A DNA stretch of 64,000 bases, from the NCBI GenBank assembly GCA_965200875.1, contig OZ241456.1, positions 1,376,001 to 1,440,000 on the forward strand, written 5' to 3'. Position numbers and translations under genes: made by a program. Below are positions 9,596 to 41,442 of the stretch, piece after piece (position 1 is the stretch's first letter; every line of letters begins with the position of its first letter). The notes below the pieces were generated by a model. That model worked only from the letters and a program-made list of their open reading frames with translations, did not search any database and was not told the DNA's origin. The DNA comes from Bdellovibrionales bacterium. Its GTDB lineage: Bacteria > Bdellovibrionota > Bdellovibrionia > Bdellovibrionales > UBA1609.

Positions 9596-9643
9596 AAAAC
9601 TCCGCCAAATATTTTTCTAATTTATACATAATTCAATAAAAAA

Positions 9644-11365
9644 CTATGCGGTTTTTTTCTGTGCCATTTCCCTTGGGCAATAGTTAGGTTGAGTGGGAAA
9701 TCGCAGAACACAGATGGTGCCCTTATTGTCATGGCTTTTATACGATATATGCCCTTTATAAAAAAGAATCAGTTTACGCACTATAGATAAACCCAAACCA
9801 GTCCCTTTGTCTTTTTTAGAATAAAAAGGATCATAAATGTATGGTTTGTCTTTTTCACTGATTCCAATGCCTGTGTCTTTTACCCTGACAATCACCCATT
9901 CGTTATCATCAAAGCTTTCCACTTCCAAATGACCTTCAGATTGACCCTCCATTGCCTCACAAGCGTTTTTAATGATATTAAGAAATATCTGTTTGAATTT
10001 ATCTTTATTTCCTAAAGTCAAACCATGAGACTTTAAAGTAAAGTGATACTTTATATGCTCCCATTTTGGATTCACGAGAACCGTATCCAATAACTCCTCC
10101 AAGACAGAATTTACATTAAGAGATTCCATTTCCACTTTGGATATCCATTCGTCTTCATCTGTTCGTGTTTCCTCATTCGACGCATAATCCAAAAAATCCC
10201 CGATTATTCTATTTAAACGGCTGACTTCACTTAAAGCTATATTCATTAGCCTTTTATTCTCTTCAGAATTTTTATTATGCAGATCCAACAACTGAATACT
10301 TCCTCCAATACTGGATAAGGGATTTCTAAGCTCATGAGCAATTCCCATAGCCATTCTCCCTATGGAAGCGTGCCTCTCTTTTTCAATAGCGTTTTTTTCC
10401 AACTCACGCATTTCCGTGCAATCCTGAAATAAAACAAGATGCTTTTGTTTACTGCTCTGTGATGATGAGTCCTCTAAAGACGGTTCCTTAATTGGATAAA
10501 CAAATAGTTCTATTGATTTTACACAAGAACCATCTTTGTATTCCACATCCAAACGATTCACCATATTACTATTTCCCTTGCCAGATATAATATATTCTCT
10601 GAGTTCCGGGAAAATCTTCTGTATAGGTGACGCCGTAAAAGAAGCTAAATTCAAAATATTCAAGGCGGATTGATTGGAGTGAATAATAAAAGTGTCTTCA
10701 TCCAAAATAAAAAGCCCCATACTGATATTATCCACGATAAGCTTATTCAGGTTTTCCAACCGATGGGCTATTTTATCAGCAACATTCAATGACCATTGCA
10801 TTTTCCGAGCTTGATAGCCTATAAAACCACTCAGCCCGGCAACAGTCACAAAACCAAGGTTATTCAACATGAATGAAAATACCAATGAGGAATCAGATCC
10901 CATTGAATAAGGGTTTAAAATCAAAACCCACGAAAATAAAAACGCGGAAAGCAAGCTTTGAGTAAAAGACCATTTATACTGACCCAACAAACCTGCACTA
11001 AAAATCTGAAGTATATAAACAAATGCCAATACCGAATATAAAGCCGGCGTGGCAATGGCTAAACACATTGTCATTAACACAGCATCCAGAAATAAATACA
11101 ACAAATGAAAAGCTGGTTTAGACTTTATTTGTTCATGGAAATAAAAATATATGAAATCAACCGAAAAAGACAAAAACAAAACCATATAAATAAAAACATA
11201 TAAATCTGAATTTAAAAAAAGAGGCTGAATAAACTGATAGCCTATAAAACCAACCAATAACAGAGAACGAGCAGACACCATAAGACAATGAATTATAAAA
11301 AATTTATTGTCTGCAAAAGGCGTAGGGACAGAATAGCTCTTTAACAAATTCATGGTATTCATCAT
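9644..11365 (-). CDS. pilS: Sensor histidine kinase, PilS type
   Basis: Multiple TM helices, PAS-like region, AHELRNPL H-box, N/G boxes; position in pil cluster. Confidence 0.82.
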   Translation of the reverse strand: MMNTMNLLKSYSVPTPFADNKFFIIHCLMVSARSLLLVGFIGYQFIQPLFLNSDLYVFIYMVLFLSFSVDFIYFYFHEQIKSKPAFHLLYLFLDAVLMTMCLAIATPALYSVLAFVYILQIFSAGLLGQYKWSFTQSLLSAFLFSWVLILNPYSMGSDSSLVFSFMLNNLGFVTVAGLSGFIGYQARKMQWSLNVADKIAHRLENLNKLIVDNISMGLFILDEDTFIIHSNQSALNILNLASFTASPIQKIFPELREYIISGKGNSNMVNRLDVEYKDGSCVKSIELFVYPIKEPSLEDSSSQSSKQKHLVLFQDCTEMRELEKNAIEKERHASIGRMAMGIAHELRNPLSSIGGSIQLLDLHNKNSEENKRLMNIALSEVSRLNRIIGDFLDYASNEETRTDEDEWISKVEMESLNVNSVLEELLDTVLVNPKWEHIKYHFTLKSHGLTLGNKDKFKQIFLNIIKNACEAMEGQSEGHLEVESFDDNEWVIVRVKDTGIGISEKDKPYIYDPFYSKKDKGTGLGLSIVRKLILFYKGHISYKSHDNKGTICVLRFPTQPNYCPREMAQKKTA

Positions 11366-12573
11366 GCTCCTCCAATCACACCTGGCAGTTTAAAGATAGG
11401 TAGATACAAGGCTATAACGACAAAGCCAATAACCACTCCTAAACCAGCAATCAAAAAAGGTTGTATGAGTTCAGAAATAGCACCCGCTGTTACGCGAACC
11501 TGCTCTTCATAAAATTCAGACACTTTCTCCAAAGTAACATCCGTACTTCCTGTTTCCTCCCCAATAGCCACCATATTAGCAACAAGGGGTGGAATAACTT
11601 TTTCTTTCTTAAGAGACTCAGCAACAGATTTGCCTTTTATCACCTGATTTCTGACAGTCTGAATAGATTGCTCAATAAAAAAATTATTGGAAGTAAAAGC
11701 AGAAGTCTTTAAAGCATCTGCCATATTCACTCCTCCTGATAACAAACATGCTAAAGTCTTGCTAAATCTGGCCAAACTGCTTTTCACTGTCAAAGGCCCT
11801 ATAACAGGAAGTAGCATCAATAATTGATCTTTTAACTGACGACCTGCCGGTGATCTCAGATACATAATAAAACAAAAAGGAATAAAAAAACCGGCTATTA
11901 AAATAAATACTATATTATTTCTAAAAATATCACTCATGTTAATCAACATCTGGGTCATCATGGGTAACTCAGCAGACGATCCGGAAAACATGGTGGTAAA
12001 CTTTGGAACCACTTGCACCATAATAATTATAAAAATAATAACAGACACACTCAATACAAACCCTGGATACATCATGGCTTTTGTCACTCTGGATTTTAAT
12101 TTTTCACTTTCTTCTATATATTCTGCTAGACGATTTAACATAATGTCCAAATTTCCTCCCACCTCACCAGCTTCAATAATATTCACATACATATTGCTGA
12201 AAATAGCTGGATACCCAGACAAGGCCATAGCAAAGGTGTCGCCTTTTTCAATACTGACAATCAAATCAGAAATAACTGTTTTTAAAGCTATGTTAAGAGA
12301 TATTTCTTTTACTATCTGAAGAGCCTGTAAAATTGGCACACCGGCATTAATCAAAAAAGCAATCTGTCTAGTAAACTGCACAATATATTTTGTTCTGACC
12401 GTAGCTGAACCTCCACTTCCCAACAGGAAAATGGATTTTTGAAACTCAATATGGATAGGCTCTAATTTTTTTCCTGCCAACATATAAAGAACTTCATTTT
12501 TGTTCTTGGCCTTTACCTTTCCAGAAACAACCTGACCAGAAGGTTTTTTGGCTTTAAATATAAAAGTATTCAT
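11362..12573 (-). CDS. pilC: Type IV pilus platform protein PilC
   Basis: Two T2SSF-type domains (FTRQIAFLINAGVP, GEVGG, GEETG). Confidence 0.94.
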   Translation of the reverse strand: MNTFIFKAKKPSGQVVSGKVKAKNKNEVLYMLAGKKLEPIHIEFQKSIFLLGSGGSATVRTKYIVQFTRQIAFLINAGVPILQALQIVKEISLNIALKTVISDLIVSIEKGDTFAMALSGYPAIFSNMYVNIIEAGEVGGNLDIMLNRLAEYIEESEKLKSRVTKAMMYPGFVLSVSVIIFIIIMVQVVPKFTTMFSGSSAELPMMTQMLINMSDIFRNNIVFILIAGFFIPFCFIMYLRSPAGRQLKDQLLMLLPVIGPLTVKSSLARFSKTLACLLSGGVNMADALKTSAFTSNNFFIEQSIQTVRNQVIKGKSVAESLKKEKVIPPLVANMVAIGEETGSTDVTLEKVSEFYEEQVRVTAGAISELIQPFLIAGLGVVIGFVVIALYLPIFKLPGVIGGA

Positions 12574-12638
12574 TTTTTACCTTTAATAAAATTATTTCAA
12601 CACCGGCTATAGTCACACTTCCCGGTTCTTTACACAAA

Positions 12639-13730
12639 TTACATGGCTTTTTTCATACGGCCACTTTTCTTCAATCTGGCAAACATTTGATTCAATTCAT
12701 TGGGTTCATAAGAGCATGATAATGCTGTCTCTATTGAAATCAACCCTTTGCTGAAAAGATCCTCCAAAGATTGATTTAAGGTAATCATACCCAACGCTTT
12801 TTGTGTTTGCATAATACTGTAAATTTGATGCAATTTCCCTTCTTTAATAAGATTTCTAACAGCTGGATTAAAAAGTAATACTTCCACCGCAGGCACTCGC
12901 TTTTTTCGATCGATAGTCGGCAAAAGCCTTTGAGAGATAATACCCTGCAGTATTTGAGAGAGTTGAGACTGAACAGCTTGTTTTTCCTCTCCAGCAAACA
13001 CCCCTATCAAACGATCTATAGTTTGAAAAGTGTTGTTCGTATGAAGCGTTCCAAATGTAAGATGCCCTGTCTCAGCAATATGAAGGGCTGTTTCTATTGT
13101 TTCCTTATCCCTTAATTCCCCCAGTAAACAAACATCCGGATCTAATCGCAAAGCCGCCCTTAAAGAGTTATGAAAATCAGGAGCATCAAAACCAATTTCT
13201 CTTTGATTGACGATAGATTTTTGATGCTGGTAAATAAATTCTATAGGGTCTTCAATCGTCAAAATATGATATTTTTTATTTTTATTGATTTCATTAATCA
13301 TGGTCGCCAGAGTGGTTGTTTTTCCACTTCCTGTTGGACCAGTCACCAATACCAATCCATGAGGTTTCCTGCTGAGATCAGATATAATTGGAGGTAAACC
13401 TATAGCAGACAATTCAGGAATCACCATAGGGATCTGTCTGAAACACCCCGCCACTGTTTTTTTCTGATAATACAAGTGGCCACGAAATCTCGCAGAATCA
13501 TCAATGGAAAAACTAAAGTCTATATCTCGATCTGTTTCAAATTGACTTTTCTGTTCGTTTGTAATGATCGAGTAACAAAGCTCTTTGCTTTGTTGTTTTG
13601 TCAGAGGGTCCACATTCAAATGCACAATGTCCCCTTTCACTCTCAAAATAGGAGGCACTCCTGCAGTAATATGAATATCAGAAGCATTTTCACGAATAGC
13701 TGTTTTCAAAACCTGCACCATTGAAATCAT
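12639..13730 (-). CDS. pilT: Type IV pilus retraction ATPase PilT
   Basis: ASDIH, GPTGSGKTTT, TIEDPIE, AETGH, TLHT and AVRNLIKE motifs. Confidence 0.95.
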   Translation of the reverse strand: MISMVQVLKTAIRENASDIHITAGVPPILRVKGDIVHLNVDPLTKQQSKELCYSIITNEQKSQFETDRDIDFSFSIDDSARFRGHLYYQKKTVAGCFRQIPMVIPELSAIGLPPIISDLSRKPHGLVLVTGPTGSGKTTTLATMINEINKNKKYHILTIEDPIEFIYQHQKSIVNQREIGFDAPDFHNSLRAALRLDPDVCLLGELRDKETIETALHIAETGHLTFGTLHTNNTFQTIDRLIGVFAGEEKQAVQSQLSQILQGIISQRLLPTIDRKKRVPAVEVLLFNPAVRNLIKEGKLHQIYSIMQTQKALGMITLNQSLEDLFSKGLISIETALSCSYEPNELNQMFARLKKSGRMKKAM

Positions 13731-15491
13731 TTAATCATCCCCTACCGTTCCATACATTACTTCATCAATGGATGTGATTCCGTTCATCAGTTTTTCCAAG
13801 CCACTTTTCCTTAATGTTTGTAAGTTGTTTTTCTCAATAGCCAATAGTTTTAATTCTCTGGGGGACAATCCTTTAAAAACACCGGCTTTTAACTCATGGG
13901 ATATTTCCATAACCTCAAAAACAGCCACCCGACCTTTATAACCGGAATTATTACAATTTTGACAACCTTCCGGTTTCATTACTTTGGAACGCGCAGATTC
14001 TGCCTCTCTGTTCGAAAACCCCAAGTTCTTTAAAATATCTATGTTAACCGAATGAGGCACTTTACATTTTTCACATAAAACACGCAAAAGTCTCTGTGCT
14101 ATTACCACAGAAGTGTTCTCCGCCACACTATAAGCCGGCAAACCTATATCCAATAAACGGGTAACTGTGGAAGCGGAATCATTGGTATGCAAAGTACTTA
14201 AAACCAGATGTCCTGTAGCCGCTGCACGATAAGCAATATTGGCTGTTTCCAGATCTCTGATTTCACCCACTAAAATAACATCTGGATCTTGACGCAGAAA
14301 TGATCTTAAAACAGAAGAAAAAGTAAGTCCAATGTTCGCATTAACCTGCACTTGATTGATACCATGTAGTTTATACTCCACAGGATCTTCTGCTGTGGAA
14401 ATATTTCTGTTAGGAGTATTTAAGGTTTGCAAACCGGAATAAATAGTGGTTGTTTTTCCACTTCCTGTTGGACCGGTCATTAAAATAAGACCTTGACTGG
14501 CATCAAGATACTTCTTAAAAATCACCAGCTGGTTTTTATTCATCCCCAGATCAGCAAGCTCTGTTCCCAAAGCAGATGTATCCAATACTCTTAGAACAAT
14601 TTTCTCTCCGTTCACCACAGGCACTGTACTCACCCTGAAACTGACGGTTTTATTATTTACTTTTACTTTTAAACGTCCATCCTGAGGAAGACGCTTTTCA
14701 CTGATATCCAGCTGAGATAAAATTTTAATACGACTGGATATAGAGTCTTTCAGACTTAAAGGGGGATGAATATATTCCGACAAATGACCATCCACTCTAA
14801 AGCGAACACGACACTGGTTTTCATACACTTCAATATGAATATCTGAACAATTTAAACGAACACCCTCCTGAATAATATACTCCACACTTTGAACAGTGGG
14901 ATCATGCTTGATTTTCTGATTGCTCAGACTGTCATCTTCTTGCAAATTCTCCACTGTGGCAGATTCAACAATAGTAAAAATATTCTGTATACTTTTACTA
15001 TTTTCGCTCTTATAATACATATTAATAGTTTTTTGAATATCACTACGTGTTCCAACCATCATTTTAATCTTGGAATTGGTGATCAAAGATACATCATCTT
15101 TTGCCTGTATATCACCAGGATCAGAAAAAGCGACAACAATAGTGTCTTCCACTTCCATAATGGGAATTAATTGATATTTTTCACATATTCTTCTTGGAAC
15201 CTTGGATAATATTGTAGTATCAATTTCAAAGTTGGCAAAATTAATTTTTTGAAGCTGATATTCCTGAGCCATCAATGTCGCTATTTGCTCATCTGAATAT
15301 TGACTGGACTGAAATATAGACGATAAAACACTTCTTCTGGTATCCCCTTTCATAGAGATAATTTTTTTCCAGTCCGATTTCTGTAAAGAATATCTGCTAT
15401 GTTTAAGAGTGGACTTAGCCGTTTTTGCCACAGCTTGTTGTGATTTTAGCTGTATTTTTTTTTGTTGATTTTTGTTGTTCTGTTGTTGCAT
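13731..15491 (-). CDS. pilB: Type IV pilus assembly ATPase PilB
   Basis: SDIHIE, RLPQDGR, Walker A, LRQDPD and tetracysteine zinc motif. Confidence 0.94.
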   Translation of the reverse strand: MQQQNNKNQQKKIQLKSQQAVAKTAKSTLKHSRYSLQKSDWKKIISMKGDTRRSVLSSIFQSSQYSDEQIATLMAQEYQLQKINFANFEIDTTILSKVPRRICEKYQLIPIMEVEDTIVVAFSDPGDIQAKDDVSLITNSKIKMMVGTRSDIQKTINMYYKSENSKSIQNIFTIVESATVENLQEDDSLSNQKIKHDPTVQSVEYIIQEGVRLNCSDIHIEVYENQCRVRFRVDGHLSEYIHPPLSLKDSISSRIKILSQLDISEKRLPQDGRLKVKVNNKTVSFRVSTVPVVNGEKIVLRVLDTSALGTELADLGMNKNQLVIFKKYLDASQGLILMTGPTGSGKTTTIYSGLQTLNTPNRNISTAEDPVEYKLHGINQVQVNANIGLTFSSVLRSFLRQDPDVILVGEIRDLETANIAYRAAATGHLVLSTLHTNDSASTVTRLLDIGLPAYSVAENTSVVIAQRLLRVLCEKCKVPHSVNIDILKNLGFSNREAESARSKVMKPEGCQNCNNSGYKGRVAVFEVMEISHELKAGVFKGLSPRELKLLAIEKNNLQTLRKSGLEKLMNGITSIDEVMYGTVGDD

Positions 15492-20801: not shown

Positions 20802-20921
20802 TAGTCCGTGAAAAAGTATGTTATTTTCCTGGATTCCCGTTTTCACGGGAATGACTTCCCTTGGGAAGTTACATGAAAGAGGGGTGTGATAATTGAAACA
20901 CTAAGGCTTTTTCACGGGCGA
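20802..20921 (+). mobile_element. MITE-like palindromic repeat, family 1, complete copy A
   Basis: Inverted ends tagtccgtgaaaaag / ctttttcacgggcga; internal ATTCCC-N8-GGGAAT hairpin at 20833-20852; homologous copies elsewhere in the window. Confidence 0.75.
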
Positions 20922-22130: not shown

Positions 22131-22137
22131 TTTTACT

Positions 22138-23670
22138 TCATCTGTTGTTTATCCATTTCTTGGGTTTGGATTTTAATTCCTGTAAGGTGGCCAAAGCTTT
22201 TTGCTTCTGCTTGTCTTTTATTTTTTTAAGAGTCTCCATATTACTGATTTTAAGCTCTTTTAAAACCGCCAATGCCTGTTGTTGATGTTTGTCTCTGATT
22301 TTTTTAAGAGCTTCTTCAGCATGATCCCATGTTTTTTGTCTTAAAATTTTAAGAGCTTCCACCGCCTGAGAAAGAGAAATACGATTTTTAAAGCCGAAAA
22401 TAATTTCCAGATGTTTTTGAATCACCGGAATCTCCCAACCTTTTGCTCCTGCTCCCAAAGTAAGATTTTGAATATGAAGTTTCATGTGCCCTTCAATAAT
22501 ACCTACAGTGGTGAGTGCTCGCAAAGCACCCAAATTTTGCACCAATCCCACGCCAGCACAAATACGAGACAAGTCGTCAGCTTGTTTCACCTCAAGCATT
22601 TTCAAACACATTTTAGCTGTAGGGTGCAGACGAGTCATGCCTCCCACTGTGCCCAACATTATAGGAGCTTCGAAAAAACCATATAATTTATCCTGTTTTA
22701 CCCTCCAGCGGGTAATTGGTTGGTATTGCCCTTTACGAGCAGAATAAGCATGCACACCAGCGGAAACAGCTCGCCAGTCGTTTCCTGTTGCTATTAACAC
22801 AGCATCAATGCCATTCATCACTCCTTTGTTGCTGGTAGCGGCTCTATAAGGATCTGCCTCCGCAAACAGAGAAGCTTGCTCAATTTTGTTCATTAACTGC
22901 GGATCTATACCTGACATCACTACTTCTGCCGTCGTCAAACGACTGTCAGACATGTTGGAAACAATACAAACAGACACCTCTTCGTCAGCTGTGGATTCAA
23001 TCAAAGTTCTTAAATATTCACACACTTGATTGACAATATTAGCACCCATTGCATCACAAGTATCCACTATTACATGAACCACTGCCATCTTCTCTGTAGA
23101 AGATTCCACATTTTCCGGCGAGGGAAGACATCGCACTGTAAAGCCAATAACTCCACCTCCTCTTTTGCACATGGAAGAGACCACATCTTCATGTATCCTA
23201 TCTATCCATTCTTTTTCGTGCTCCTGAATAACTCTTTTTAAATTTTCAAAGTTTTTTACTCTATTAATTTGGATCTGACCTATCACTCCCGCTCCTTTAA
23301 CAGCGGTTTTAATATAACCGTGTTCACTCACCCATCGGGCGGTTTTACTGGCCGCCGCAACAATGGAAGTCTCCTCCACAGCCATAGGAATGACTGTTCT
23401 TTTTCCGTCAATACAGAAATTGGTGGCCACTCCCAAGGGAATTTGAAAGTAACCAATAACATTTTCTATAAATTTTTCCGCCAAATCAGTTTTCTTAATT
23501 CCCCCAGACTTTAAATATTTAATATCTGATTGAGTAAGAGCACCCATTTTTATTAGACGAGAAAACCTCTCCGCCATTGTCAGACGAGAAAAACCCTTAA
23601 ACAGGTTTTCTCTTTCTTTATTTGTTATTTCTGTGTTGTCGGGATTTTTGATTTTCTGTGAACTGGCCAT
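22138..23670 (-). CDS. mvaA: Class II HMG-CoA reductase
   Basis: ENVIG, DAMGAN, NKGVMNG, GNDWRA, GTVGG and GHMKLH motifs. Confidence 0.95.
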   Translation of the reverse strand: MASSQKIKNPDNTEITNKERENLFKGFSRLTMAERFSRLIKMGALTQSDIKYLKSGGIKKTDLAEKFIENVIGYFQIPLGVATNFCIDGKRTVIPMAVEETSIVAAASKTARWVSEHGYIKTAVKGAGVIGQIQINRVKNFENLKRVIQEHEKEWIDRIHEDVVSSMCKRGGGVIGFTVRCLPSPENVESSTEKMAVVHVIVDTCDAMGANIVNQVCEYLRTLIESTADEEVSVCIVSNMSDSRLTTAEVVMSGIDPQLMNKIEQASLFAEADPYRAATSNKGVMNGIDAVLIATGNDWRAVSAGVHAYSARKGQYQPITRWRVKQDKLYGFFEAPIMLGTVGGMTRLHPTAKMCLKMLEVKQADDLSRICAGVGLVQNLGALRALTTVGIIEGHMKLHIQNLTLGAGAKGWEIPVIQKHLEIIFGFKNRISLSQAVEALKILRQKTWDHAEEALKKIRDKHQQQALAVLKELKISNMETLKKIKDKQKQKALATLQELKSKPKKWINNR

Positions 23671-23949
23671 TGAAAAAACTCCATTCTATAGTGTTCAACA
23701 TTTTAGATATTTGCCAATCACCAATACAGGAATATTTTTAAGCATAAGTGGAACAACAAATAACATAAATAACCACATTGTTTCATACTTTATCCTGAAA
23801 AATAAACAAAAATCAGAAAAAATACATAAATTTAATCTGTTTTTGGTCTTTTTCATCTGATAAACCTATTCCTGATATATCTCCACTCCTGATATATTTC
23901 TGATTATCCTGAAATATCTTGTGCCCAATATCTTTATATATTTCTGAAT

Positions 23950-25008
23950 CTACTGATTTTTCCATTTCCAGGTTTTAAGATTTTTCATATCTTTTATATC
24001 TTTGCAACCGGAACAAAATAAAGCAATTTTCAGCTCATGTTCCAAACGAACCATTACTTTCTCCAGTGCCATATCCCCTTCCAAAGCTGATTGAACAATA
24101 GGTCGCGCCACTCCTATTCTGTCTGCTCCCAAAGCCAGTGCTTTCGCAGAATCGCAACCATTACGAATGCCACCGCTGGCCCATATTCCATAATCCTTCT
24201 GCACTTCACGAGCAAAAAGCAAAGAATCCACAGTGGAAATGCCCCAGTTCTTAAAGGCTTTTGCTGTTCCATACAAAATATGCTCTTTGCTGGTTCTGTT
24301 GCCTTCAATTCTTCCCCAATGTGTGCCACCATATCCACTTACATCCACAGCAAAAAGTCCTGTTCCCACCAAACTTTGCAATGTTTCCTGTGAAAAACCA
24401 CAACCTGTTTCTTTTAATATAACAGGGACAGATAATATTTCACATAAATTCTGTAAAGCTTTCAAGCCCCCTTTAAATTGAGGAGTACCTTCTGTCTGAA
24501 GGGCTTCTTGCAATGGGTTGGTATGCACCACCATAGCGTCAGCCTTTAGTGAATACACCATCTGTTCCATTAAAGACACTTCGTGCTTAATCATCTGGGA
24601 AAGACCAATATTACCAAGTAAAACCAAATCAGGATATTTTTGACGAATTTCCTGCCACTCTTTTCCAGCTGAAGGATCAAATATTTGCCTCCTTTGAGAA
24701 CCTGCTCCCATAATCCAACCTCTTTTTTCGCAGGCTTGTGCAATACTGTTGTTGATATTTAAAGAACCTTCCCAACCCCCTGTCATACCTGTAACTACAA
24801 AAGGAGTTTTTAGAGTTTTGCCGAAAATCTGAGTGGATATATCCACTTCCGAAAAGTCCATTTCAGGCAGTGCAGAGTGCATTAATTGAATAGCCTGAAA
24901 ACCGCTATAGCCGAGGGCTTCGTTTTCCTCTTTCAAAGATAAGAAAATATGATCTTTTTTTCGATGGGCAAATTCAGATTTTTTACTGAGTGTTGATTGT
25001 TTTTTCAT
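23950..25008 (-). CDS. fni: Type 2 isopentenyl-diphosphate delta-isomerase
   Basis: RKKDHI, MTGG, GSQR, NPLQE, KETGCG and GGT motifs. Start taken at MKKQ (25008). Confidence 0.95.
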   Translation of the reverse strand: MKKQSTLSKKSEFAHRKKDHIFLSLKEENEALGYSGFQAIQLMHSALPEMDFSEVDISTQIFGKTLKTPFVVTGMTGGWEGSLNINNSIAQACEKRGWIMGAGSQRRQIFDPSAGKEWQEIRQKYPDLVLLGNIGLSQMIKHEVSLMEQMVYSLKADAMVVHTNPLQEALQTEGTPQFKGGLKALQNLCEILSVPVILKETGCGFSQETLQSLVGTGLFAVDVSGYGGTHWGRIEGNRTSKEHILYGTAKAFKNWGISTVDSLLFAREVQKDYGIWASGGIRNGCDSAKALALGADRIGVARPIVQSALEGDMALEKVMVRLEHELKIALFCSGCKDIKDMKNLKTWKWKNQ

Positions 25009-25375
25009 TACCTGACGGTTTCCCCGAACTGGCTCCCAAAGCTTTTTGAACCAGATGTGAGAAACCACTGGAGTCCCGCACAGCCATATCTGCCAGCATT
25101 TTTCTATTTATATGAATATTGGCTTTTTTCAAAAGTCCAATAAAAGTGGAATAATTCATATTATTAAGACGCGCTGAGGCATTAATGCGTTGGTTCCATA
25201 GTTTGCGTTGCTCCCGTTTTAAACGCCGGCGATCACGATACTGATAAGCCAAAGCCCTGTCACTTTTTTCCACTGCCACCGTAAAACAGCGACTATTTGC
25301 CGAATAAAACCCTTTGGCTCTCTTTAATATCTTTTTATGCCTTTTTCTTCTTACACTACCTGTTTTAACTCTCAT
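24983..25375 (-). CDS. rplT: 50S ribosomal protein L20
   Basis: MRVKTG...RHKKILKRAKGF, YRDRR, LWNQRINA and NRKMLAD motifs. Confidence 0.97.
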   Translation of the reverse strand: MRVKTGSVRRKRHKKILKRAKGFYSANSRCFTVAVEKSDRALAYQYRDRRRLKREQRKLWNQRINASARLNNMNYSTFIGLLKKANIHINRKMLADMAVRDSSGFSHLVQKALGASSGKPSGNEKTINTQ

Positions 25376-25949: not shown

Positions 25950-26171
25950 CTCACTATTACCAGAAACACAAAAACAAGCAAGTGATTTTTTGCAAATTCT
26001 GATTTTAAACCAGCAATTTCTATTCTCTTATTCCGGGAGTTTTACAAAAACAAGCGACTGAAAGCCAGTTCTAACTGTTTTTTACTCACATTGGCTTTTA
26101 TTTCTTGACTTTTTACCACCCCCCGTTAGTCTTAAATGATATTTTTTTGCAAATTAACAAGGAGATTTTTT

Positions 26172-27287
26172 ATGAAACTGATGAAATTTATAATAGTGAC
26201 AGGTTTTATTTTTATTTTGAGAGAAGTTTTTTTCCAAACCAAAAACAGTCTTGTAAAGATTCCACACTGTAATAATTTTGTTCTGAAAACTACACTGGTT
26301 TTATTATTTTTAAGCTTATTTTCTTTAGGTTGTGAAAAAAAAGATGCAGGTGCTCAAACAGAAGCGGGTGCTCAAACAGAAGAAGAAGATATAAAAGTAT
26401 TGGAGGATCTAAAAGCAAAAGATTTGGAATCGATAGAAGATAATTTGAAAGATCTGGATGCTAAACTTAGCAATGAGAATTTAAAACCCGATGAGCGTCA
26501 GGAGATAGAAGGACAGAAAGAAGTATTAGAAATCGAAAGGACCGCTTTAAAAAAAATGAATATAGGTCCTTCAATGTTTGAAAGACCCACTCCTCCCCGT
26601 GCAAACACTCAACCGGAAACAGGTGCTCAAACAGAAGCAAGTACTCAACCGGAAACAGGTGCTCAAACAGAAGCGGGTGCTCAAACAGAAGCAAGTGCTC
26701 AACCGGAAACGGGTGCTCCAGTATGTAATATCGATAATTATAAAGAATATATATATAAGCCTGGCGACCATAATTGCAATTTAGCAGGTGTGAATTTTAT
26801 TAAAAGGTGGTTTTTGCTTAGGCCGAGTTTTCGCGGAGCAAATTTTCGCGGAGCAAATTTGCAAGGGGTGATTTTGACCGGGACGAATTTGATAAACGTG
26901 GATTTTACCAGAGCAAATTTGTCCGATTCGATGTTGCGCCGAGTACATGCGCTCAGTGCGAAATTTACCAATGCGAATTTAAGCAATGCAATTTTGAGCT
27001 TTGCGAATTTGTCTAGGGGGGCAAGTTTTACCGAAGCGAATTTAAGCAATGCGAATTTGTCCAATGCAAATTTGAGCGATGCGATTTTGCAAAGAGCGAA
27101 TTTGCGCAATGCAAATTTATACAGAGCAAATCTACGAAGGGCAAATTTAATCGAGGCGGATCTGCGGGGAGCGAATTTTACTAGAGCAAATTTGAGTGGA
27201 GCAAATTTTACTAGTGCGAAAGTTGATCCAGACTTGGCGACTTATTTAACCTCAAAAGATATAAGTGGTTTTGTTGTTGTAGAATAA
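26172..27287 (+). CDS. Pentapeptide-repeat lipoprotein (paralogue 1)
   Basis: Lipobox-like FSLGC, AQTEAG/TQPETG linker repeats, A(N/D)LxX pentapeptide repeats. Confidence 0.88.
   Translation: MKLMKFIIVTGFIFILREVFFQTKNSLVKIPHCNNFVLKTTLVLLFLSLFSLGCEKKDAGAQTEAGAQTEEEDIKVLEDLKAKDLESIEDNLKDLDAKLSNENLKPDERQEIEGQKEVLEIERTALKKMNIGPSMFERPTPPRANTQPETGAQTEASTQPETGAQTEAGAQTEASAQPETGAPVCNIDNYKEYIYKPGDHNCNLAGVNFIKRWFLLRPSFRGANFRGANLQGVILTGTNLINVDFTRANLSDSMLRRVHALSAKFTNANLSNAILSFANLSRGASFTEANLSNANLSNANLSDAILQRANLRNANLYRANLRRANLIEADLRGANFTRANLSGANFTSAKVDPDLATYLTSKDISGFVVVE
26605..26718 (+). repeat. 18-bp coding tandem repeat (TQPETG / AQTEAG)
   Basis: About six units such as actcaaccggaaacaggt and gctcaaacagaagcgggt. 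Confidence 0.9.
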
Positions 27288-27362: not shown

Positions 27363-30300
27363 TCACCTCGCTTTAGCATACCTTCTCTCACGGATTTCTT
27401 TTATCTCTTTTTTTAGTAAAGCGTTTTCTTTTTTGAGCCGAGCTTGGTCTTGTTGTAAAGTTTTTATTAGTCGGCTTTGTTTCTGAAGGGTTTGTGTAAA
27501 GCTTTCCATAAGCTGATTTTGTTCTTGGTCACTTTCTGTAAGCTTATCCACCTTAACAAACAGGTTGTTTATTTGTGCTTTTATTTTGCTTTGAAACTTT
27601 TTAAACGCTGACACCAGCCAGGGGATTAGCTCTGTGTATCTGATTGTAAAAAAACCTTTCCGGTCTTTTTCCACCACTTCCGGGATTGTGTCTTTTACTT
27701 CCTGTGCAATAAAACCAAAGTGTTTTCCTTTCCGGGAATCTGCGTTTTTCCATTTAAAGCTATAAGGCTTTAATTGGTTTATCTTTTCCAGCGGTGTTTC
27801 AAGGGTTTTAAAATCTTTTTTAAGTCGTTTGTCAGATGATGATTGTAAAGAGGCATAAAGGTTATTAGCCTCAAGATTATTGTTTATGGCCACCCATTCC
27901 TCTTTTGCGTTTCCTTCAATTAAACCTTGTATCCAAAGGTAATTTGAATTGTTACTCATAAGCTCTTTCTCTTTTTCATTGGAAAAAGAACCTATAAGAA
28001 TATTGTGATTGTTTTTTTCAATAGAAGTGGTACTCCAATTACTGTTGCCATTTCCATAGGCTTTTCTTTTTGTACGATTCCCGGCTTTAAGAATTATATT
28101 ATTGTTACCGGTGGTATTTTTTCCTGCTTCATACCCTATGAAAGTATTATGTCGTCCACTTCCACTTTCCTTTCCAGCTTCATGTCCTATAAAAGTATTT
28201 CCATCGCCTGCGGCGTACTTCCCACTATCTGCACCAGCCATGTACCCTAAAAAAGTATTATCGTACCCGTACCGGTTGTGTTCCCCTGCCGAAAAACCTA
28301 TCATAGTGTTTTTGCTTTGGAGATTACTATATCCGGCTTCATACCCTATATAAGTGTTATGATTACCTGTTTGGTTTTTTTCTCCTGTCTTGTATCCCAT
28401 AGCAGTATTTTCTATACCTGTGGTGTTGTCCTTTCCTGCGTGATAACCTATAAAAGTATTTTCCTCACCGGTGGTGTTTTTCTCTCCGGCATAATAACCC
28501 ATAAAGGTATTTTCCCGCCCGGTGGTGTTAGCTTGTCCCGCGTTGTATCCTATAAAAGTATTCTGCCCGACTAGGTTTTGTGTACCTGCCCTATAACCCA
28601 TAAAGGTATTGCGCTCGCCATTGATATTATGAAAACCCGCAAGGTGACCTATAAAAGTGTTGCTTTTCCCTATAGTGTTACTATTACCTGCTTGATATCC
28701 TATAAAGGTATTTTCCCAACCGGTGGTGGTATTATGTCCGGTTTCAGCTCCAACAAAAACATTTTTATTCCCACTGGTATTATTATACCCGGCTTCAGAT
28801 CCTATAAAGGTGTTTTTGTCCGCTTGGTTATTATAACCAGTTTTCCACCCTAGAAAAGTGTTGTTATCTCCAGAGGGTTTGTTATATCCAGATTGAAAAC
28901 CCACAAAAGTATTGTTGTGTCTAGTGGTTTTATAACCTGCCTGATAACCCATAAAAGTATTGTTGTTTCCAGTACCACATAAATAACCTGCCGCCGCTCC
29001 TATAAAGGTATTATTCCCCGCCGTTGCGGTCTTTTCCCCGGCATTGTTGCCCATAAAAGTATTACCACTGCCACGGGTGTTGTTCTTTCCAGCCATAGAA
29101 CCTATAAAGGTATTACTGTTACCCTCATTGTTTTTTTTTCCAGATTCAAAACCCACAAAAGTATTATTCACACCTGTTTGGTCAGGTGTTCTGGTAACGG
29201 GTGGTGTTGAATAGCTTACTATAATGCTGGTGGCGTCTCCATGCCCGGCCCGTGTTCCTACAAAAGTATTTTGATTACCAGTGGTGTTTAGATGACCAGC
29301 ATAATTCCCTATGAATGTGTTGTTACTCGCAGTGTTGTATCTTCCTGATTGACCACCTATAAAAGTATTCCCTGACCCTGTAATATTGTCTTGACCAGCT
29401 CTCCCCCCCACAAAAGTATTTTCATTTGGAGTTGTGTTGTTTCGTCCGGCCCGGTGGCCAATAAAAACATTAAAGTCCCCTTCGGTGTTGTTCTCACCTG
29501 CCCAAAGACCTATGAATGTGTTGTCATATCCGTCTGTGTTGTCATAACCAGCCCTGTGCCCTATGAAGGTATTACCCGTTTTTATGGTATTTGAAAAACC
29601 AGCCAGAGTACCTATAAAAGTATTAAAATAACCTGTCGTGGTGGCTGTCCCTGCCTTATATCCCATAAAGGTATTTACATGGTTGTTGGTGCTGGCCACT
29701 TCATTAACACTTGCACCCGCTCCAAACCCGATAGCGGTTGTCCGGCTCTTTGCAATAGCATTTGTTCCCCCACAGCCAATTAAGGTACGGCCTTTACTAC
29801 CAGTCAGATTTGCAGTTGTGTCGTCTTGATCATCCACCCGGAAACAATCTATGTCGGTTTTAACCAACCTTCCACTTGCACACCCAATGGATTTGCACTT
29901 GTCGCCTGTATTATCACAAGCGGAATTAGTGCACTTATATTTCATATTGCAAGAAAAGGAAAAACACCCTGTTTGATTTGTGGTTGTGCAGGAAGACCTG
30001 TTAACTGTCGCATATTCTCCTAAGTTAGGTTTTTTGTAATAAACTGTTAAGATTCTTTCTTCAGTGTCAGTGTTTGTCGTGTCCGGGTCTTTAAATTCCA
30101 TTTTCTGAACTTCAACAAAACCACCCTGGAATGCTTGAAAAGGGGGTGAGGTCGCAGTTTTTGCGAAAACCACATTTAAATTTCCGTCCGTCAATCTTTT
30201 AAAACTTTTAACTGTTGTACCGGTAACCCTATCTATGGCTGTTGTATGAATATTCTCTACACACTTAAGCCTTCTTTCCAATAGCTCTTTTACTGTACTC

Positions 30301-30476
30301 TTTAGGGCAGATTCCTCTATATTTGTTTGTACCACTTTAGACTTATTGACAGATATTTCAGTCAGTTTTATTAAACCAGAACCTACTGCTAACAATAGGC
30401 CACTTGTTAGTAGAGTCTCAATCAAACTCCAACCGGAATTATTGTTTTGTAGTTTTAAAATATGTTTTTTTTTCAT
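27363..30476 (-). CDS. Pilin-like N-terminus + NTFIGxxAG repeat fibre + peptidase S74 chaperone + coiled coil (putative pilus-associated tail-fibre-like adhesin)
   Basis: SG|WSLIETLL class III signal, about 30 roughly 17-aa NTF(I/M/V)GxxAG repeats, SDKRLKK...GFIAQEV S74 signature. Start at 30476 after an SD-like gagga. Confidence 0.85.
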   Translation of the reverse strand: MKKKHILKLQNNNSGWSLIETLLTSGLLLAVGSGLIKLTEISVNKSKVVQTNIEESALKSTVKELLERRLKCVENIHTTAIDRVTGTTVKSFKRLTDGNLNVVFAKTATSPPFQAFQGGFVEVQKMEFKDPDTTNTDTEERILTVYYKKPNLGEYATVNRSSCTTTNQTGCFSFSCNMKYKCTNSACDNTGDKCKSIGCASGRLVKTDIDCFRVDDQDDTTANLTGSKGRTLIGCGGTNAIAKSRTTAIGFGAGASVNEVASTNNHVNTFMGYKAGTATTTGYFNTFIGTLAGFSNTIKTGNTFIGHRAGYDNTDGYDNTFIGLWAGENNTEGDFNVFIGHRAGRNNTTPNENTFVGGRAGQDNITGSGNTFIGGQSGRYNTASNNTFIGNYAGHLNTTGNQNTFVGTRAGHGDATSIIVSYSTPPVTRTPDQTGVNNTFVGFESGKKNNEGNSNTFIGSMAGKNNTRGSGNTFMGNNAGEKTATAGNNTFIGAAAGYLCGTGNNNTFMGYQAGYKTTRHNNTFVGFQSGYNKPSGDNNTFLGWKTGYNNQADKNTFIGSEAGYNNTSGNKNVFVGAETGHNTTTGWENTFIGYQAGNSNTIGKSNTFIGHLAGFHNINGERNTFMGYRAGTQNLVGQNTFIGYNAGQANTTGRENTFMGYYAGEKNTTGEENTFIGYHAGKDNTTGIENTAMGYKTGEKNQTGNHNTYIGYEAGYSNLQSKNTMIGFSAGEHNRYGYDNTFLGYMAGADSGKYAAGDGNTFIGHEAGKESGSGRHNTFIGYEAGKNTTGNNNIILKAGNRTKRKAYGNGNSNWSTTSIEKNNHNILIGSFSNEKEKELMSNNSNYLWIQGLIEGNAKEEWVAINNNLEANNLYASLQSSSDKRLKKDFKTLETPLEKINQLKPYSFKWKNADSRKGKHFGFIAQEVKDTIPEVVEKDRKGFFTIRYTELIPWLVSAFKKFQSKIKAQINNLFVKVDKLTESDQEQNQLMESFTQTLQKQSRLIKTLQQDQARLKKENALLKKEIKEIRERRYAKAR

Positions 30477-30492
30477 TTTATTTTCCTCTTTG

Positions 30493-31137
30493 TTATTGAA
30501 AACCATCACAAGGTGCTAGCTTGTTCGCTCCCGGTCCACCTATCTGTTTAGGCGCACCCTCTCTGCATATATTGGATAGGGTTACATTTACATAATCAGA
30601 TAAATCACTATCTTTTTTGTTACACCACATATCAAACATACTTGGGTTACTCCACTGAACACGAGCAATAACCTGAAGTTTTTTTCCTGAAACTTCTTTC
30701 TGTATACTTAAGCAATGATATTGATGCTTTTTCTCCGATGAATCGTCATCACTCCTTGTGTTAATTATGCAATCAGCATCAGTGGGACAATCATAATTCA
30801 ATATTTTTTTTAAGTTTTTTTTAATCTCTGTTTGTGTTGATCCTTCTGCTTTGCAAGGGAACACTAGTTTTTTACCTGCTTGGCAGGGGGGATTTGGTGT
30901 TGGACATTCTGTTTGGTCTGCGGGGTCTGTGCAACGCTGGCATAATTTCCACCCACCATTTGAGACTATACAGGTTGAAAGATTACCCACCCACATCTGA
31001 GAAGATGACTTTATATTTCTTTTCTCATTATCTACCTTTGTGCTTCTATAAGAAACAGTGGCAATCCCGGAAAGAATCCCAACGAGCGTCAGTGTTACCA
31101 GCACTTCAGTAAGCGTAAAACCTGCCTTTGTTTTCAT
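30493..31137 (-). CDS. Type IV prepilin (12 Cys)
   Basis: KAG|FTLTEVLVTLTLVGILSGIA N-methylation/cleavage motif. Confidence 0.9.
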   Translation of the reverse strand: MKTKAGFTLTEVLVTLTLVGILSGIATVSYRSTKVDNEKRNIKSSSQMWVGNLSTCIVSNGGWKLCQRCTDPADQTECPTPNPPCQAGKKLVFPCKAEGSTQTEIKKNLKKILNYDCPTDADCIINTRSDDDSSEKKHQYHCLSIQKEVSGKKLQVIARVQWSNPSMFDMWCNKKDSDLSDYVNVTLSNICREGAPKQIGGPGANKLAPCDGFQ

Positions 31138-31443
31138 ACTTTAAACAACCTGTTTGCTAAAAAATCTGCCTTTGTTTTTATATTTTAAATAAAATGGGAT
31201 ACCCGGTGAAATTGTAAAAGCCATATCAATTATAGATTTTGTATTAATTGCAAAGATACTAGTGTGGTAACACAGCTGTTTGAACCCGTGAGACAAGTAT
31301 GAACAAATCAGCTGATACAACCAAGCAAGGTTTTTCAGATAAAAAATTTTGGTGCTTTCAAAGGATTTTCCAGTTAGTGTGTGTAAGTGTAAAAAAGTTT
31401 TTTGAATGCTGGATATCCAGCTCAGATTATGACGCAGAGTACC

Positions 31444-31453
31444 GGGGGGGGGG
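31444..31453. repeat. G10 homopolymer
   Basis: accGGGGGGGGGGtag in the AT-rich intergenic region upstream of the pilin operon. Confidence 0.95.
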
Positions 31454-31688: not shown

Positions 31689-31755
31689 ACCCCGTGAAAA
31701 ACCCTTAGTGCTTTAATTATCACACTCTTTTTTCAGGTACTTTCCCACAAAAAGT
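31689..31755 (-). mobile_element. MITE-like repeat, family 1, partial copy C
   Basis: cccgtgaaaaacccttagtgctttaattatcacactc...tactttccc matches the left half of copy B. Confidence 0.65.
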
Positions 31756-31769
31756 GTCCGTGAAAGAAT

Positions 31770-31897
31770 CTCTTTATCAATACTCAACACGAGGCGAGTT
31801 CGGCTTTGAGCACCCCGTGGCTGAAAGACGCGTGCGTGGCAAAACGCATGTTTTCACCTAAGCGGTGAAGTATGAGTAAAGAGCACTTGTCCACTAA
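31770..31897 (+). repeat. Palindromic repeat, family 2, copy 1
   Basis: Core gacgcgtgcgtggcaaaacgcatg followed by cggtgaagtatgagtaaagagcac...ccactaa; degenerate left arm ctctttatcaatactc. Confidence 0.75.
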
Positions 31898-32123
31898 ACA
31901 AACAAGTTCTTCGATTGATTTTCAGGAGTTATGGTGTTATATTTTAAATAAGTCAAACAGTGCAAAAAATAAGGATTATCAGAAGCTTTTGGATAAAGAT
32001 TCTGAGTGGAAGGAGGCTATGATGTATTTGCGTAAGTTTTTGTTGGAGGAGCAACAGCAGGTTGTGGCAGATGCCAAGGAAAAAAACCGCCGTGATCGAG
32101 TGGCGCGTGAAGCTTATGTTTAG
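31895..32123 (+). pseudogene. Probable C-terminal remnant of a PD-(D/E)XK (Rpn-like) nuclease gene
   Basis: LWCYIL...EAMMYLRKF...DAKEKNRRDRVAREAY resembles the C-terminal helices of PDDEXK_2-type proteins. The ORF's ATG (31872) is supplied by the repeat element. Confidence 0.5.
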
Positions 32124-32160
32124 GAAGACAAAAGAACATCTGCTTTTCTGAGGAGGTTTT

Positions 32161-37971: not shown

Positions 37972-38038
37972 ATTTTTAATGTTACCTTTTTGGTTCAGGC
38001 TTTTTTAATGCCACTTTTTAGTTAAAGTCTTTAACTTC

Positions 38039-41142: not shown

Positions 41143-41442
41143 TTAAGAATTGTTTTTCAGCTTTTTGATCTCCTCTTCAGAAAGACCTGTCATCTCAGAA
41201 ATAAAAGAAAGCTTTAATTTGCTTTTTAGCATATTAAGTACCACTTCCTGACGACCTTCCTGATGACCTTCTTGACGACCTTCCTGTCGACCTTTCTGCA
41301 TGCCTTCTTGCATACCCTCTTGTAAACCTTCCTGACGACCCTTTTGCATACCTTCTTGTATTCCTTTTTGCATACCTTCTCTTAGACCTTTCTGCATGCC
41401 TTCTTGTATGCCCACTAATTTAATCTCTTCTCTTATGTCCAT
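41143..41442 (-). CDS. Putative intragenic small Rpn product (99 aa, antitoxin-like)
   Basis: In-frame ATG at 41442 preceded by aagAGGAGGttat. Confidence 0.65.
   Translation of the reverse strand: MDIREEIKLVGIQEGMQKGLREGMQKGIQEGMQKGRQEGLQEGMQEGMQKGRQEGRQEGHQEGRQEVVLNMLKSKLKLSFISEMTGLSEEEIKKLKNNS

What the first reader, a model, noticed from the sequence alone, without database searches (positions are those of the whole stretch)
27363..31137. Type IV pilin fused to a phage-tail-fibre-like shaft with a self-cleaving S74 chaperone
Seen: one ORF joins a class III signal (G|WSLIE, Glu at +5), a Cys-rich pilin-like head, about 30 NTFIGxxAG repeats, an S74 domain and a coiled coil; it lies 16 bp behind a 12-Cys pilin. 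Established: S74 domains trimerise phage fibres and then autocleave, and Bdellovibrio has S74-containing fibre adhesins. Inference: a protein processed at both ends whose pilin helices could mount a trimeric fibre on a retractable pilus (PilB/T/C are in the window). I do not know this architecture as a characterised system.
Basis: partly seen in the sequence, partly recalled or inferred. Interest (0 to 1): 0.85.

Follow-up and report, generated by a model that had tools for sequence, protein, structure and literature searches.

The report
Pilin-anchored self-cleaving trimeric fibre adhesin
A small-genome relative of the predator Bdellovibrio fuses a pilus subunit to a phage-style, self-trimming three-chain fibre, probably a swappable sticky tip for its pili; this kind of fusion was counted in a 2021 database survey but not studied, and here it is one member of a genus-wide family of interchangeable tips.

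Summary
The ORF is real (27363-30476, minus strand, 1037 aa): class III signal, Cys-rich head, 30 repeats of 16-17 aa, S74 domain (Ser881/Lys886), coiled coil, 16 nt behind a 12-Cys pilin. The head models as a pilin-like fold (weak scores; 20 of 50 structural rows are pilins). A homotrimer model passes (0.86; best control 0.00), with confident contacts only in neck and shaft. The pilin-S74 architecture is already catalogued (Raynaud 2021: 29 proteins, plus 8 with YadA heads, read there as a peptidase), and this scan found it before on other genomes (5 notes); I found no experimental study. New here: the head belongs to a genus-level family (14 copies in this genome, up to 23 in relatives) with swapped passengers, either Cys-rich rods or repeat/S74 fibres. 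33 of 35 S74 ORFs read from 8 relatives are pilin-led; the MAT-type anchor was found in 0 of 15 genus genomes. Seven cassettes, this one included, share a poly-C promoter-like motif, and the PilD methylase domain is degenerate. Best reading (0.6): a trimeric, S74-matured tip adhesin of a type IV filament, like CofB/TcpB in mounting and like MAT fibres in role. Which machine, and which target, remain open.

The parts
31426..31453 (-). Promoter-like motif: C10 tract followed by a conserved box ending in a -10-like hexamer, 307 nt before the partner pilin's start; candidate slipped-strand switch
   Evidence: Motif occurs 7 times in the genome, each time upstream of a pilin cassette of this family; tract lengths 9-11. 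Promoter activity and switching not shown.
30493..31137 (-). Small 214-aa type IV pilin, 12 Cys; first gene of the cassette, member of a family that leads 6 head-bearing cassettes in this genome
   Evidence: Pfam N_methyl E 9e-7, TIGR02532; paralogues
27363..30476 (-). Pilin-fibre-S74 fusion gene, 1037 aa
   Evidence: covered without differences by one contig of run X1
30432..30476 (-). Class III leader peptide, residues 1-15, ending in Gly
   Evidence: Sequence; homologous heads carry the canonical G|F-S-L-x-E signal
29877..30431 (-). Pilin-like head, residues 16-200: helix of about 51 residues, antiparallel sheet, conserved Cys; shared with 13 paralogues in the genome
   Evidence: AlphaFold2 mean pLDDT 76; VIA top row GspK Z 5.6, rmsd 3.4, 98 aligned; 20 of 50 rows pilins or pseudopilins; family alignments
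29682..29876 (-). Neck, residues 201-265, conserved in repeat-bearing members; start of the predicted trimer interface
28101..29681 (-). Shaft, residues 266-792: 30 repeats of 16-17 aa, predicted beta-roll trimer resembling trimeric-autotransporter heads
   Evidence: best VIA row UspA1 head, Z 8.2, rmsd 8.0, 111 aligned; trimer model of the first repeats
27837..28100 (-). Tip segment, residues 793-880; would be the free end after self-cleavage; candidate binding region
   Evidence: 57-64% identical to five relatives whose heads differ from this one; binding role inferred
27597..27836 (-). Peptidase S74 intramolecular chaperone, residues 881-960, Ser881 and Lys886
   Evidence: Pfam PF13884 E 2.6e-20 on 881-935; phage long tail fibre 6f45 E 8e-4
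27366..27596 (-). C-terminal coiled coil, residues 961-1037
   Evidence: Sequence pattern; weak match to Max coiled coil
11362..15491 (-). Context only: pilB-, pilT-, pilC-family genes of a type IVa pilus machine, followed by a kinase and sigma-54 regulator (8159-11365)
   Evidence: Pfam T2SSE+MshEN, T2SSE, T2SSF, HisKA, Sigma54_activat; gene names inferred from order and size

Best explanation
A modular minor type IV pilin that mounts a homotrimeric, phage-fibre-like adhesin on the tip of a type IV filament. Steps: (1) the prepilin inserts in the inner membrane and PilD removes the 15-residue leader, probably without N-methylation (signal and enzyme shown in sequence; processing inferred). 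(2) In the periplasm the S74 domain and coiled coil bring three chains into register, the repeat shaft zips into a three-chain beta-roll, and the S74 domain cuts itself off before Ser881 (domain and catalytic pair shown; trimer modelled for neck and first repeats; cleavage inferred from phage and MAT S74 proteins). (3) The three pilin helices enter the filament first, as described for CofB/TcpB, and major pilin added below pushes the rod, roughly 15-20 nm long if each repeat is one turn (inferred), through the secretin. (4) The exposed tip binds a surface, prey cell or animal host (target unknown), and retraction pulls the cell in (inferred). The gene is one of a repertoire: the same head carries Cys-rich rods, repeat shafts or repeat/S74 fibres, passengers are exchanged between heads (shown by tree and identity), and in this genome seven cassettes share a poly-C promoter-like motif that could switch them on and off (motif shown; switching inferred).
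For: Signal, repeats and S74 in one intact ORF. Head model and pilin-enriched structural neighbours. Trimer model: score 0.86, best of 3 controls 0.00, runs share at least 79% of contacts, pLDDT 67; the mark is reached by 20 of 30 solved homo-pairs and 1 of 23 single chains, counts that hold only roughly here. Conservation: 33 of 35 distinct S74 ORFs read from 8 same-genus genomes carry the pilin head, 15 S74 ORFs lie in one array of about 65 kb in G012; 28 of the 150 best head relatives end in S74, and 13 of those 28 match both N_methyl and S74 in Pfam at E 0.01. The architecture recurs in Melainabacteria clusters and InterPro. Machinery in the genome: PilB/T/C families, PilM next to PilD, four secretins. 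Precedents: CofB and TcpB are tip-located pilin homotrimers that pass the secretin (PMC8179133; PMC9565799); S74 self-cleavage shown for MAT Bd3182 (PMC10769870).
Against: No experiment. The protein misses Pfam N_methyl and TIGR02532 and has Trp at +1. Structural matches of the head are weak: best Z 5.6, no Foldseek match at E 0.001. The trimer model has no confident contacts in the head, and its pass may come from likeness to solved autotransporter heads. The gene is not in an operon with pilus machinery, and in 3 of 15 genus genomes cassette-type pilins adjoin the T2SS-like gsp operon instead. The upstream small pilin is not a fixed neighbour. No ligand is known.
Confidence: 0.6

Rival explanations
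1. Same trimeric fibre, but carried by the T2SS-like machine (gspE-F-G-H-I-J-K operon) as an alternative tip on a short endopilus, so it is held in or released through that secretin and is not on a long retractable pilus.
For: Best structural match of the head is the T2SS tip pseudopilin GspK (Z 5.6; Z 5.5). A partner-type pilin lies just upstream of gspE in G000, a head-family gene just upstream in G010, and the large pilin array follows gspI in G002. The gsp ATPase is in 15 of 15 genus genomes.
Against: 12 of 15 genomes show no such neighbour in the stretches read (1.5 kb upstream for all 15, about 15 kb for 7). The operon in G000 has its own GspH-K-like genes. Profile comparison of the head with the GspJ-like protein aligns only the signal helix. 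GspK is within about 1 Z unit of true pilins in the same list.
Confidence: 0.17
2. The pilin-like N-terminus is only a membrane tether or export handle: the trimer stays anchored in the inner membrane, or is released, and never polymerises into a filament.
For: Many family members lack Glu5 or have Gly-rich signals; the head is divergent; the same shaft and S74 occur in other bacteria behind a Sec signal and MAT-like domain (33 of 120 shaft homologues match my MAT-type profile), so the fibre does not need a pilus.
Against: This copy keeps Gly-1, Glu5 and a full-length helix. The whole globular head with its Cys is conserved, not just the helix. Cassettes are led by ordinary pilins. An inner-membrane tether would leave an adhesin-like tip in the periplasm of a diderm.
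Confidence: 0.12
3. The S74 module is a pilus-borne protease acting on outside substrates (the reading in Raynaud 2021), or an inactive trimerisation cap that stays attached.
For: InterPro classes the domain as a peptidase (PMC8179133). Most genus members carry a variant motif with Ser/Arg in place of Asp, and score lower in Pfam.
Against: The characterised S74 domains I saw cut themselves once after folding (PMC10769870). This copy has the canonical S-D-x-R-x-K motif, at the C-terminus behind a fibre, and the variants keep Ser and Lys at the same spacing.
Confidence: 0.08
4. A chance fusion, prophage remnant or assembly artefact without function.
For: S74 domains are typical of phage fibres; this is the only S74 gene in the genome.
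Against: Intact 1037-codon frame confirmed on a separately assembled contig; no phage families among the 32 window proteins scanned in Pfam; the same architecture in 8 of 8 relatives read in full, plus G007 by shared frame.
Confidence: 0.02

Closest known systems
Modular type IV pilins, architecture IPR012902 (N_methyl) - IPR030392 (Peptidase S74), Raynaud et al. 2021, PMC8179133
   Same: Class III signal and pilin module fused to a C-terminal S74 domain; 29 proteins listed, plus 4, 3 and 1 with one to three YadA-head (IPR008640) domains between.
   Different: Only counted there and read as 'peptidase activity'. This protein would be missed by that survey (no N_methyl match). The lineage-specific head family, passenger exchange and shared promoter motif are not in the passages I read.
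CofB (ETEC CFA/III) and TcpB (Vibrio cholerae TCP) homotrimeric tip pilins
   Same: N-terminal pilin domain plus C-terminal beta-rich domains that form a homotrimer at the pilus tip and pass the secretin.
   Different: Type IVb pili, short beta-repeat and beta-sandwich domains, no S74, no self-cleavage; they bind a secreted partner (CofJ, TcpF). No sequence match found in PDB sequences.
Bdellovibrio bacteriovorus MAT (mosaic adhesive trimer) fibres, Caulton et al. 2024, PMC10769870
   Same: Same order of bacteria; about 1000-aa trimeric fibres, constant N-terminal anchor, variable passengers, S74 and non-S74 subtypes, multi-gene repertoire.
   Different: All 21 MATs have a signal peptide followed by a conserved ~130-aa beta-rich domain whose surface partner is unknown; 'pilin' does not occur in the main text or the 2 readable supplement files. 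This protein has a pilin head and a different shaft, without the V-G-I-G-type capping loop.
Trimeric autotransporter adhesin heads (UspA1, EibD, BoaA, BpaC; YadA-type beta-roll)
   Same: Gly-containing short repeats; best structural rows for the shaft; trimer contacts along the repeats.
   Different: Period 16-17, no Pfam YadA_head match, high rmsd (8.0), no C-terminal outer-membrane barrel; the polarity is reversed, with the anchor at the N-terminus.
PilV shufflon adhesins of IncI plasmid pili; Myxococcus Tad/Kil tips (PMC12075869)
   Same: Pilin carrier with interchangeable C-terminal modules at a pilus tip.
   Different: PilV exchange by invertase is recalled (paper PMC9045228 seen in listing only); Kil tips are hetero-complexes and the paper holds no 'S74' or 'tail fiber'.

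Membership tests
Modular type IV pilin (pilin-S74 architecture) | N-terminal class III signal: short leader ending in Gly, Glu5, 21 hydrophobic residues | tested here: met
   Read from the sequence; canonical in homologous heads
Modular type IV pilin (pilin-S74 architecture) | Match to IPR012902 / N_methyl / TIGR02532 profile | tested here: not met
   No match for this protein; 14 of 28 S74-bearing head relatives match at E 0.01
Modular type IV pilin (pilin-S74 architecture) | Pilin fold of the head | tested here: inconclusive
   Long helix plus antiparallel sheet; 20 of 50 VIA rows are pilins but best Z is 5.6; Foldseek finds nothing at E 0.001
Modular type IV pilin (pilin-S74 architecture) | Extra non-pilus domain (S74) | tested here: met
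   PF13884 E 2.6e-20
Modular type IV pilin (pilin-S74 architecture) | Processing by prepilin peptidase and incorporation in a filament | not testable with these tools
   PilD with both Asp motifs present
S74 intramolecular chaperone fibres | C-terminal domain with S-D-x-x-x-K catalytic motif followed by a coiled coil | tested here: met
   Ser881, Lys886; motif as given in PMC10769870
S74 intramolecular chaperone fibres | Homotrimer | tested here: inconclusive
   Model of residues 16-345 passes, 0.86 against 0.00; a model, and the S74 part was not folded
S74 intramolecular chaperone fibres | Self-cleavage | not testable with these tools
   Inferred from Bd3182
MAT fibres of Bdellovibrio | Signal peptide followed by the conserved ~130-aa beta-rich N-terminal domain | tested here: not met
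   My profile, built from 8 order-level S74 proteins with that layout (not from B. bacteriovorus itself), finds nothing in G000 at E 1 and nothing in 15 of 15 genus genomes
MAT fibres of Bdellovibrio | Capping-loop motif V-G-G/N-pi-X-X-P-X-X-X-L | tested here: not met
   No such repeats in this ORF (sequence)
MAT fibres of Bdellovibrio | Mosaic repertoire with a constant anchor and variable tips | tested here: met
   Analogous, with a different anchor
Trimeric autotransporter adhesins | C-terminal YadA-type membrane anchor | tested here: not met
   C-terminus is S74 plus coiled coil; no anchor family in Pfam
CofB/TcpB type IVb tip pilins | Beta-repeat and beta-sandwich domains; type IVb operon | tested here: not met
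   Shaft of 30 repeats plus S74 instead; no sequence match in PDB; gene not in a pilus biogenesis operon

The most novel reading that the evidence does not exclude
In this genus of small-genome Bdellovibrionales the Sec-exported MAT-type fibre repertoire is gone and is replaced by a repertoire of pilin-mounted trimeric fibres: one lineage-specific pilin head, exchangeable passengers (self-cleaving phage-type fibres or Cys-rich rods), up to 15 S74 copies in an array, cleaved by a PilD that no longer methylates, and in this genome selected by poly-C switching. That would be a retractable filament tipped by a phage-like receptor-binding fibre, a direct mechanical link between target recognition and pulling in a predator-derived lineage.
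Probability: 0.3. Interest if true: 0.8.

Novelty: new variant of a known kind. Interest (0 to 1): 0.56.

Why it matters
How Bdellovibrio-like bacteria hold their recognition fibres on the surface and couple them to pili is stated as open in the MAT paper. Here fibre and pilin are one polypeptide, so the coupling can be tested with one gene. It would also reinterpret a catalogued modular-pilin class: the S74 module would be a folding chaperone that makes a three-fold tip, not an outward-facing protease. A homotrimer matured by self-cleavage on a type IVa-like filament would extend the CofB/TcpB principle beyond type IVb pili. The genus-wide repertoire points to strong selection on target recognition in an uncultured lineage whose relatives occur in sponge metagenomes.

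Tried and rejected
NCBIfam gave nothing for the fusion. Foldseek gave no match at E 0.001 for either model. The ESM Atlas gave no usable hit for the head alone. A head-region homologue search among 570-1815-aa proteins found 1 protein among 2768 candidates; the profile search later found 1066 at E 0.001. Cluster look-up of 10 homologues gave no names. A PilY1 search found nothing over the cut-off in 41 genomes, but its 14 controls were also blank, so it is uninformative. Sigma-70 and terminator scans were at chance level (13 found, 15.3 expected); no sigma-54 motif upstream of 11 pilin loci by a simple pattern. No RNA holder listed. No length variant of the C10 tract was listed among the rows shown, from contigs only. 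The poly-C motif is not a genus trait: 2 of 48 relatives' upstream regions had a tract of 7 or more. A fixed partnership with the 12-Cys pilin was rejected. A fixed link to the gsp operon was rejected as a rule (2 of 15 upstream; one more downstream among 7 read). My first repeat pattern was wrong and gave 0; corrected. The tree is the quick version; the careful search did not finish, and 36 unclassified rows were left out. Literature searches: 'S74'+'pilin'+'tail fiber' 1 unrelated paper; 'Bdellovibrio'+'S74'+'fibre' only the MAT paper; 'modular pilins'+'S74' only Raynaud 2021; 'pilin'+'intramolecular chaperone' 6 papers, none on this by title and abstract start; searches listed no study of such a fusion. 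The library lacks most subscription journals; one scanned supplement of the MAT paper could not be read, and the preprint's supplements were not opened.
Full report
Observation. The fusion gene runs from the ATG at 30476 to 27363 on the minus strand, 1037 aa, 16 nt behind a 214-aa pilin with 12 Cys. It has a 15-residue leader ending in Gly, Trp at +1, Glu at +5 and about 21 hydrophobic residues; 10 Cys in residues 72-235; 30 repeats at residues 268-785 with 27 of 29 spacings of 16-17; Pfam S74 at 881-935, E 2.6e-20, with Ser881 and Lys886; and a coiled-coil-like end. No other ORF of the 1.87-Mb genome has 2 such repeats or an S74 domain. One contig of run X1 covers the whole gene with no differences. 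In MAT Bd3182 the catalytic residue is S782 and the mature structure ends at A781 (PMC10769870, passages), so the cut expected here is Ser880|Ser881, not S|D.

Organism. The nearest named relatives of the window's PilT-family protein (82% and 77% identity, then 49% or less) are labelled Bdellovibrionales. The 14 same-genus genomes are 1.3-2.3 Mb. Short pieces about 85-97% alike to the gene lie in 2 sponge metagenomes of one study that I laid (X3, X4), a hint at habitat only.

The head is a family. It has 13 paralogues in this genome at E below 1e-50 with a profile built from them; they carry Cys-rich C-terminal parts (one is short), and most sit in two- or three-gene cassettes led by a small pilin. 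A profile of 35 heads matches 14 of 15 genus genomes at E 1e-8, 13 of them over the full head, with 4-23 copies; four of these genomes (G003, G005, G007, G009) gave no sequence to the profile; among 26 genomes outside the genus only G016 has a full-length match. Among 1.84 billion representatives 1066 match at E 0.001. Of the best 150, 28 end in S74 (27 with the repeats), 21 have repeats without S74 (some are truncated), 59 are Cys-rich, 6 mix repeats and Cys-rich parts, 36 are short or other.

Passengers are exchanged. On a quick tree of 126 heads the S74 label needs 21 changes, at least 12 forced by well-supported branches; this is inflated by truncated rows, but near-identical heads do carry an S74 fibre in one case and a Cys-rich rod in the other (P0169 and P0190). 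This protein's head is closest to Cys-rich members (7 of the 8 best, 29-35% identity), whereas its tip and S74 are 57-65% identical to proteins with other heads. G002 also has a pilin with a Cys-rich rod ending directly in S74.

The fusion is the rule for S74 in this genus. S74 was found in 9 of 14 relatives. I read 35 distinct S74 ORFs from 8 of them (one duplicate row dropped; G007 not fetched, but its head and S74 matches share one 612-aa frame): 33 carry the pilin head (one weakly), 2 are headless pieces, none has a MAT-type domain. G012 holds 15 in about 65 kb. Of 20 S74 ORFs read from other genera, 8 begin with a signal peptide and a ~135-aa domain that fits the description of the MAT anchor, 3 match the pilin-head profile weakly and 1 more looks pilin-led by eye. 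A profile of that MAT-type domain matches 0 of 15 genus genomes and 12 of 26 others, 6 of which supplied the profile; 14 outside genomes also lack it, so its absence is not unique to this genus. The same repeat shaft is common elsewhere (5479 of 8000 candidates); of the best 120, 33 start with a MAT-like domain and 11 with a pilin head, all 11 with S74. The ESM Atlas places the protein next to Melainabacteria clusters with S74 in 100% and N_methyl in 14, 74 and 97% of members, scores 0.86-0.90.

Structure. AlphaFold2 models give a helix over mature residues 2-52 and an antiparallel sheet (mean pLDDT 79 and 76). For the head alone the best row is GspK (Z 5.6, rmsd 3.4, 98 aligned) and 20 of 50 rows are pilins or pseudopilins; no row reaches Z 6 and Foldseek finds nothing, so the fold call is likely but not firm. 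For the shaft the best row is the UspA1 autotransporter head (Z 8.2, rmsd 8.0). Three copies of residues 16-345 score 0.86 against 0.00 for the best of 3 controls, with at least 79% shared contacts and pLDDT 67; the mark was reached by 20 of 30 solved homo-pairs and 1 of 23 single chains, which holds only roughly for this job. Confident contacts lie at residues 211-341, neck and repeats, none in the head; likeness to solved autotransporter trimers may explain the pass.

Machinery. The genome has PilB-, PilT- and PilC-family genes in the window, PilM beside PilD, four secretins, a second A24 peptidase and a gsp operon. PilD keeps both Asp motifs but its N-terminal part has lost one Cys pair; the methylase domain PF06750 was found in 0 of 15 genus genomes and 25 of 26 others. 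Which machine carries the fibre is open: cassette-type pilins adjoin the gsp operon in 3 of 15 genomes, and the window's pilB/T/C are 12-16 kb away. A small pilin lies directly upstream of the fusion only in G000 and G002 among 9 genomes read.

Regulation. A motif made of a C9-C11 tract and a conserved box ending in a -10-like hexamer occurs 7 times in the genome, each time upstream of a cassette of this family, including this one; these are 7 of the 23 tracts of 9 or more C. This recalls phase-variable fimbrial promoters of Bordetella (recalled, no paper read). Switching was not observed, and relatives do not share the motif (2 of 48 upstream regions with any tract of 7 or more).

Mechanism, rivals and confidence. 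Best reading (0.6): PilD-cut minor pilin, S74-driven trimerisation and self-cleavage in the periplasm, three pilin helices priming a filament as CofB and TcpB do (PMC8179133 and PMC9565799, passages), tip pushed through the secretin to bind prey or host. Shown: anatomy, conservation, passenger exchange, machinery genes. Modelled: fold and trimer. Inferred: processing, display, adhesion, retraction. Rivals: display by the T2SS-like machine (0.17), plain membrane tether (0.12), outward protease or uncut cap (0.08), artefact (0.02).

What is known. Raynaud et al. 2021 (passages and Dataset S1 rows seen) list N_methyl-S74 among the 15 commonest modular-pilin architectures, 29 proteins, plus 8 with YadA heads, and read it as peptidase activity. 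Caulton et al. 2024 (abstract, passages, Discussion, 2 of 3 supplement files searched) describe MAT fibres with a different anchor and name interplay with type IV pili as unexplored. Ten literature searches showed no study of a pilin-S74 fibre. Earlier notes of this scan report the architecture in at least 5 other genomes and gave me the lead to the Raynaud survey, which I then checked; one note covers a Cys-rich cassette of this same genome. None matched this sequence. So the protein works like a CofB/TcpB tip carrying a MAT-like fibre; it is a member of the modular pilins and of the S74 fibres, and not a member of the MAT, autotransporter or CofB families.

Verdict. The genus-level repertoire with exchangeable passengers, missing MAT-type anchor, degenerate methylase and shared poly-C motif adds something I did not find in print. 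New variant of a known kind; interest 0.56.

Noticed in passing
G000:C1:836773-837648 (outside the window): Prepilin peptidase PilD keeps both Asp motifs but has a degenerate N-terminal methylase domain; PF06750 found in 0 of 15 genus genomes and 25 of 26 others. Many pilins of the family start with Trp, Tyr, Met, Val, Thr or Gly instead of Phe.
   Followed up: partly
window 26100-26135 and six sites elsewhere in G000: A second promoter-like cassette, TTGACT then a C9-C11 tract as spacer, precedes six genes for small secreted or lipoprotein-like proteins; the convergent pentapeptide-repeat gene at 26136-27287 has an interrupted version. About 53 ORFs of the genome have pentapeptide-like repeats by a rough pattern.
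   Followed up: partly
window 31740-32125: Dispersed repeat: 34 blastn hits in the genome, depth up to 378 against 18 nearby. It includes an 83-aa ORF (31872-32123) that looks like a lone C-terminal piece of a YhgA/Rpn-family protein (by eye; a full one is at 41143-42261).
   Followed up: partly
G012:C7:821000-887000 (L054-L057): Array of about 15 pilin-fibre-S74 genes with 1-34 shaft repeats each, separated by tandemly repeated intergenic DNA; one copy is split.
   Followed up: partly
L042-L060, L080: Most genus S74 domains carry a variant motif with Ser-Ser-Arg/Lys in place of Ser-Asp-x-Arg; Ser and Lys spacing is kept. Activity unknown.
   Followed up: no
G002:C1:786000-842000 (L135, L044, L045): Long cluster of near-identical small pilins alternating with head-family genes, directly after gspE-F-G-H-I; includes a pilin with a Cys-rich rod ending in S74 and a lone S74 ORF behind another Cys-rich pilin.
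   Followed up: partly
window 20901-25068: Mevalonate-pathway-like genes (kinase-like, HMG-CoA reductase-like, type 2 IPP isomerase-like) by eye from the translations; not scanned.
   Followed up: no
window 35551-39031: HipA-like kinase gene followed by an 806-aa ORF that starts with a HipA-N-like and helix-turn-helix region fused to a long further domain; possible toxin-antitoxin or defence module.
   Followed up: no
G000:C1:868233-868997 and 1446170-1447939: Two heads nearly identical over about 200 residues; the first ends right after the head, the second continues into a Cys-rich rod.
   Followed up: no
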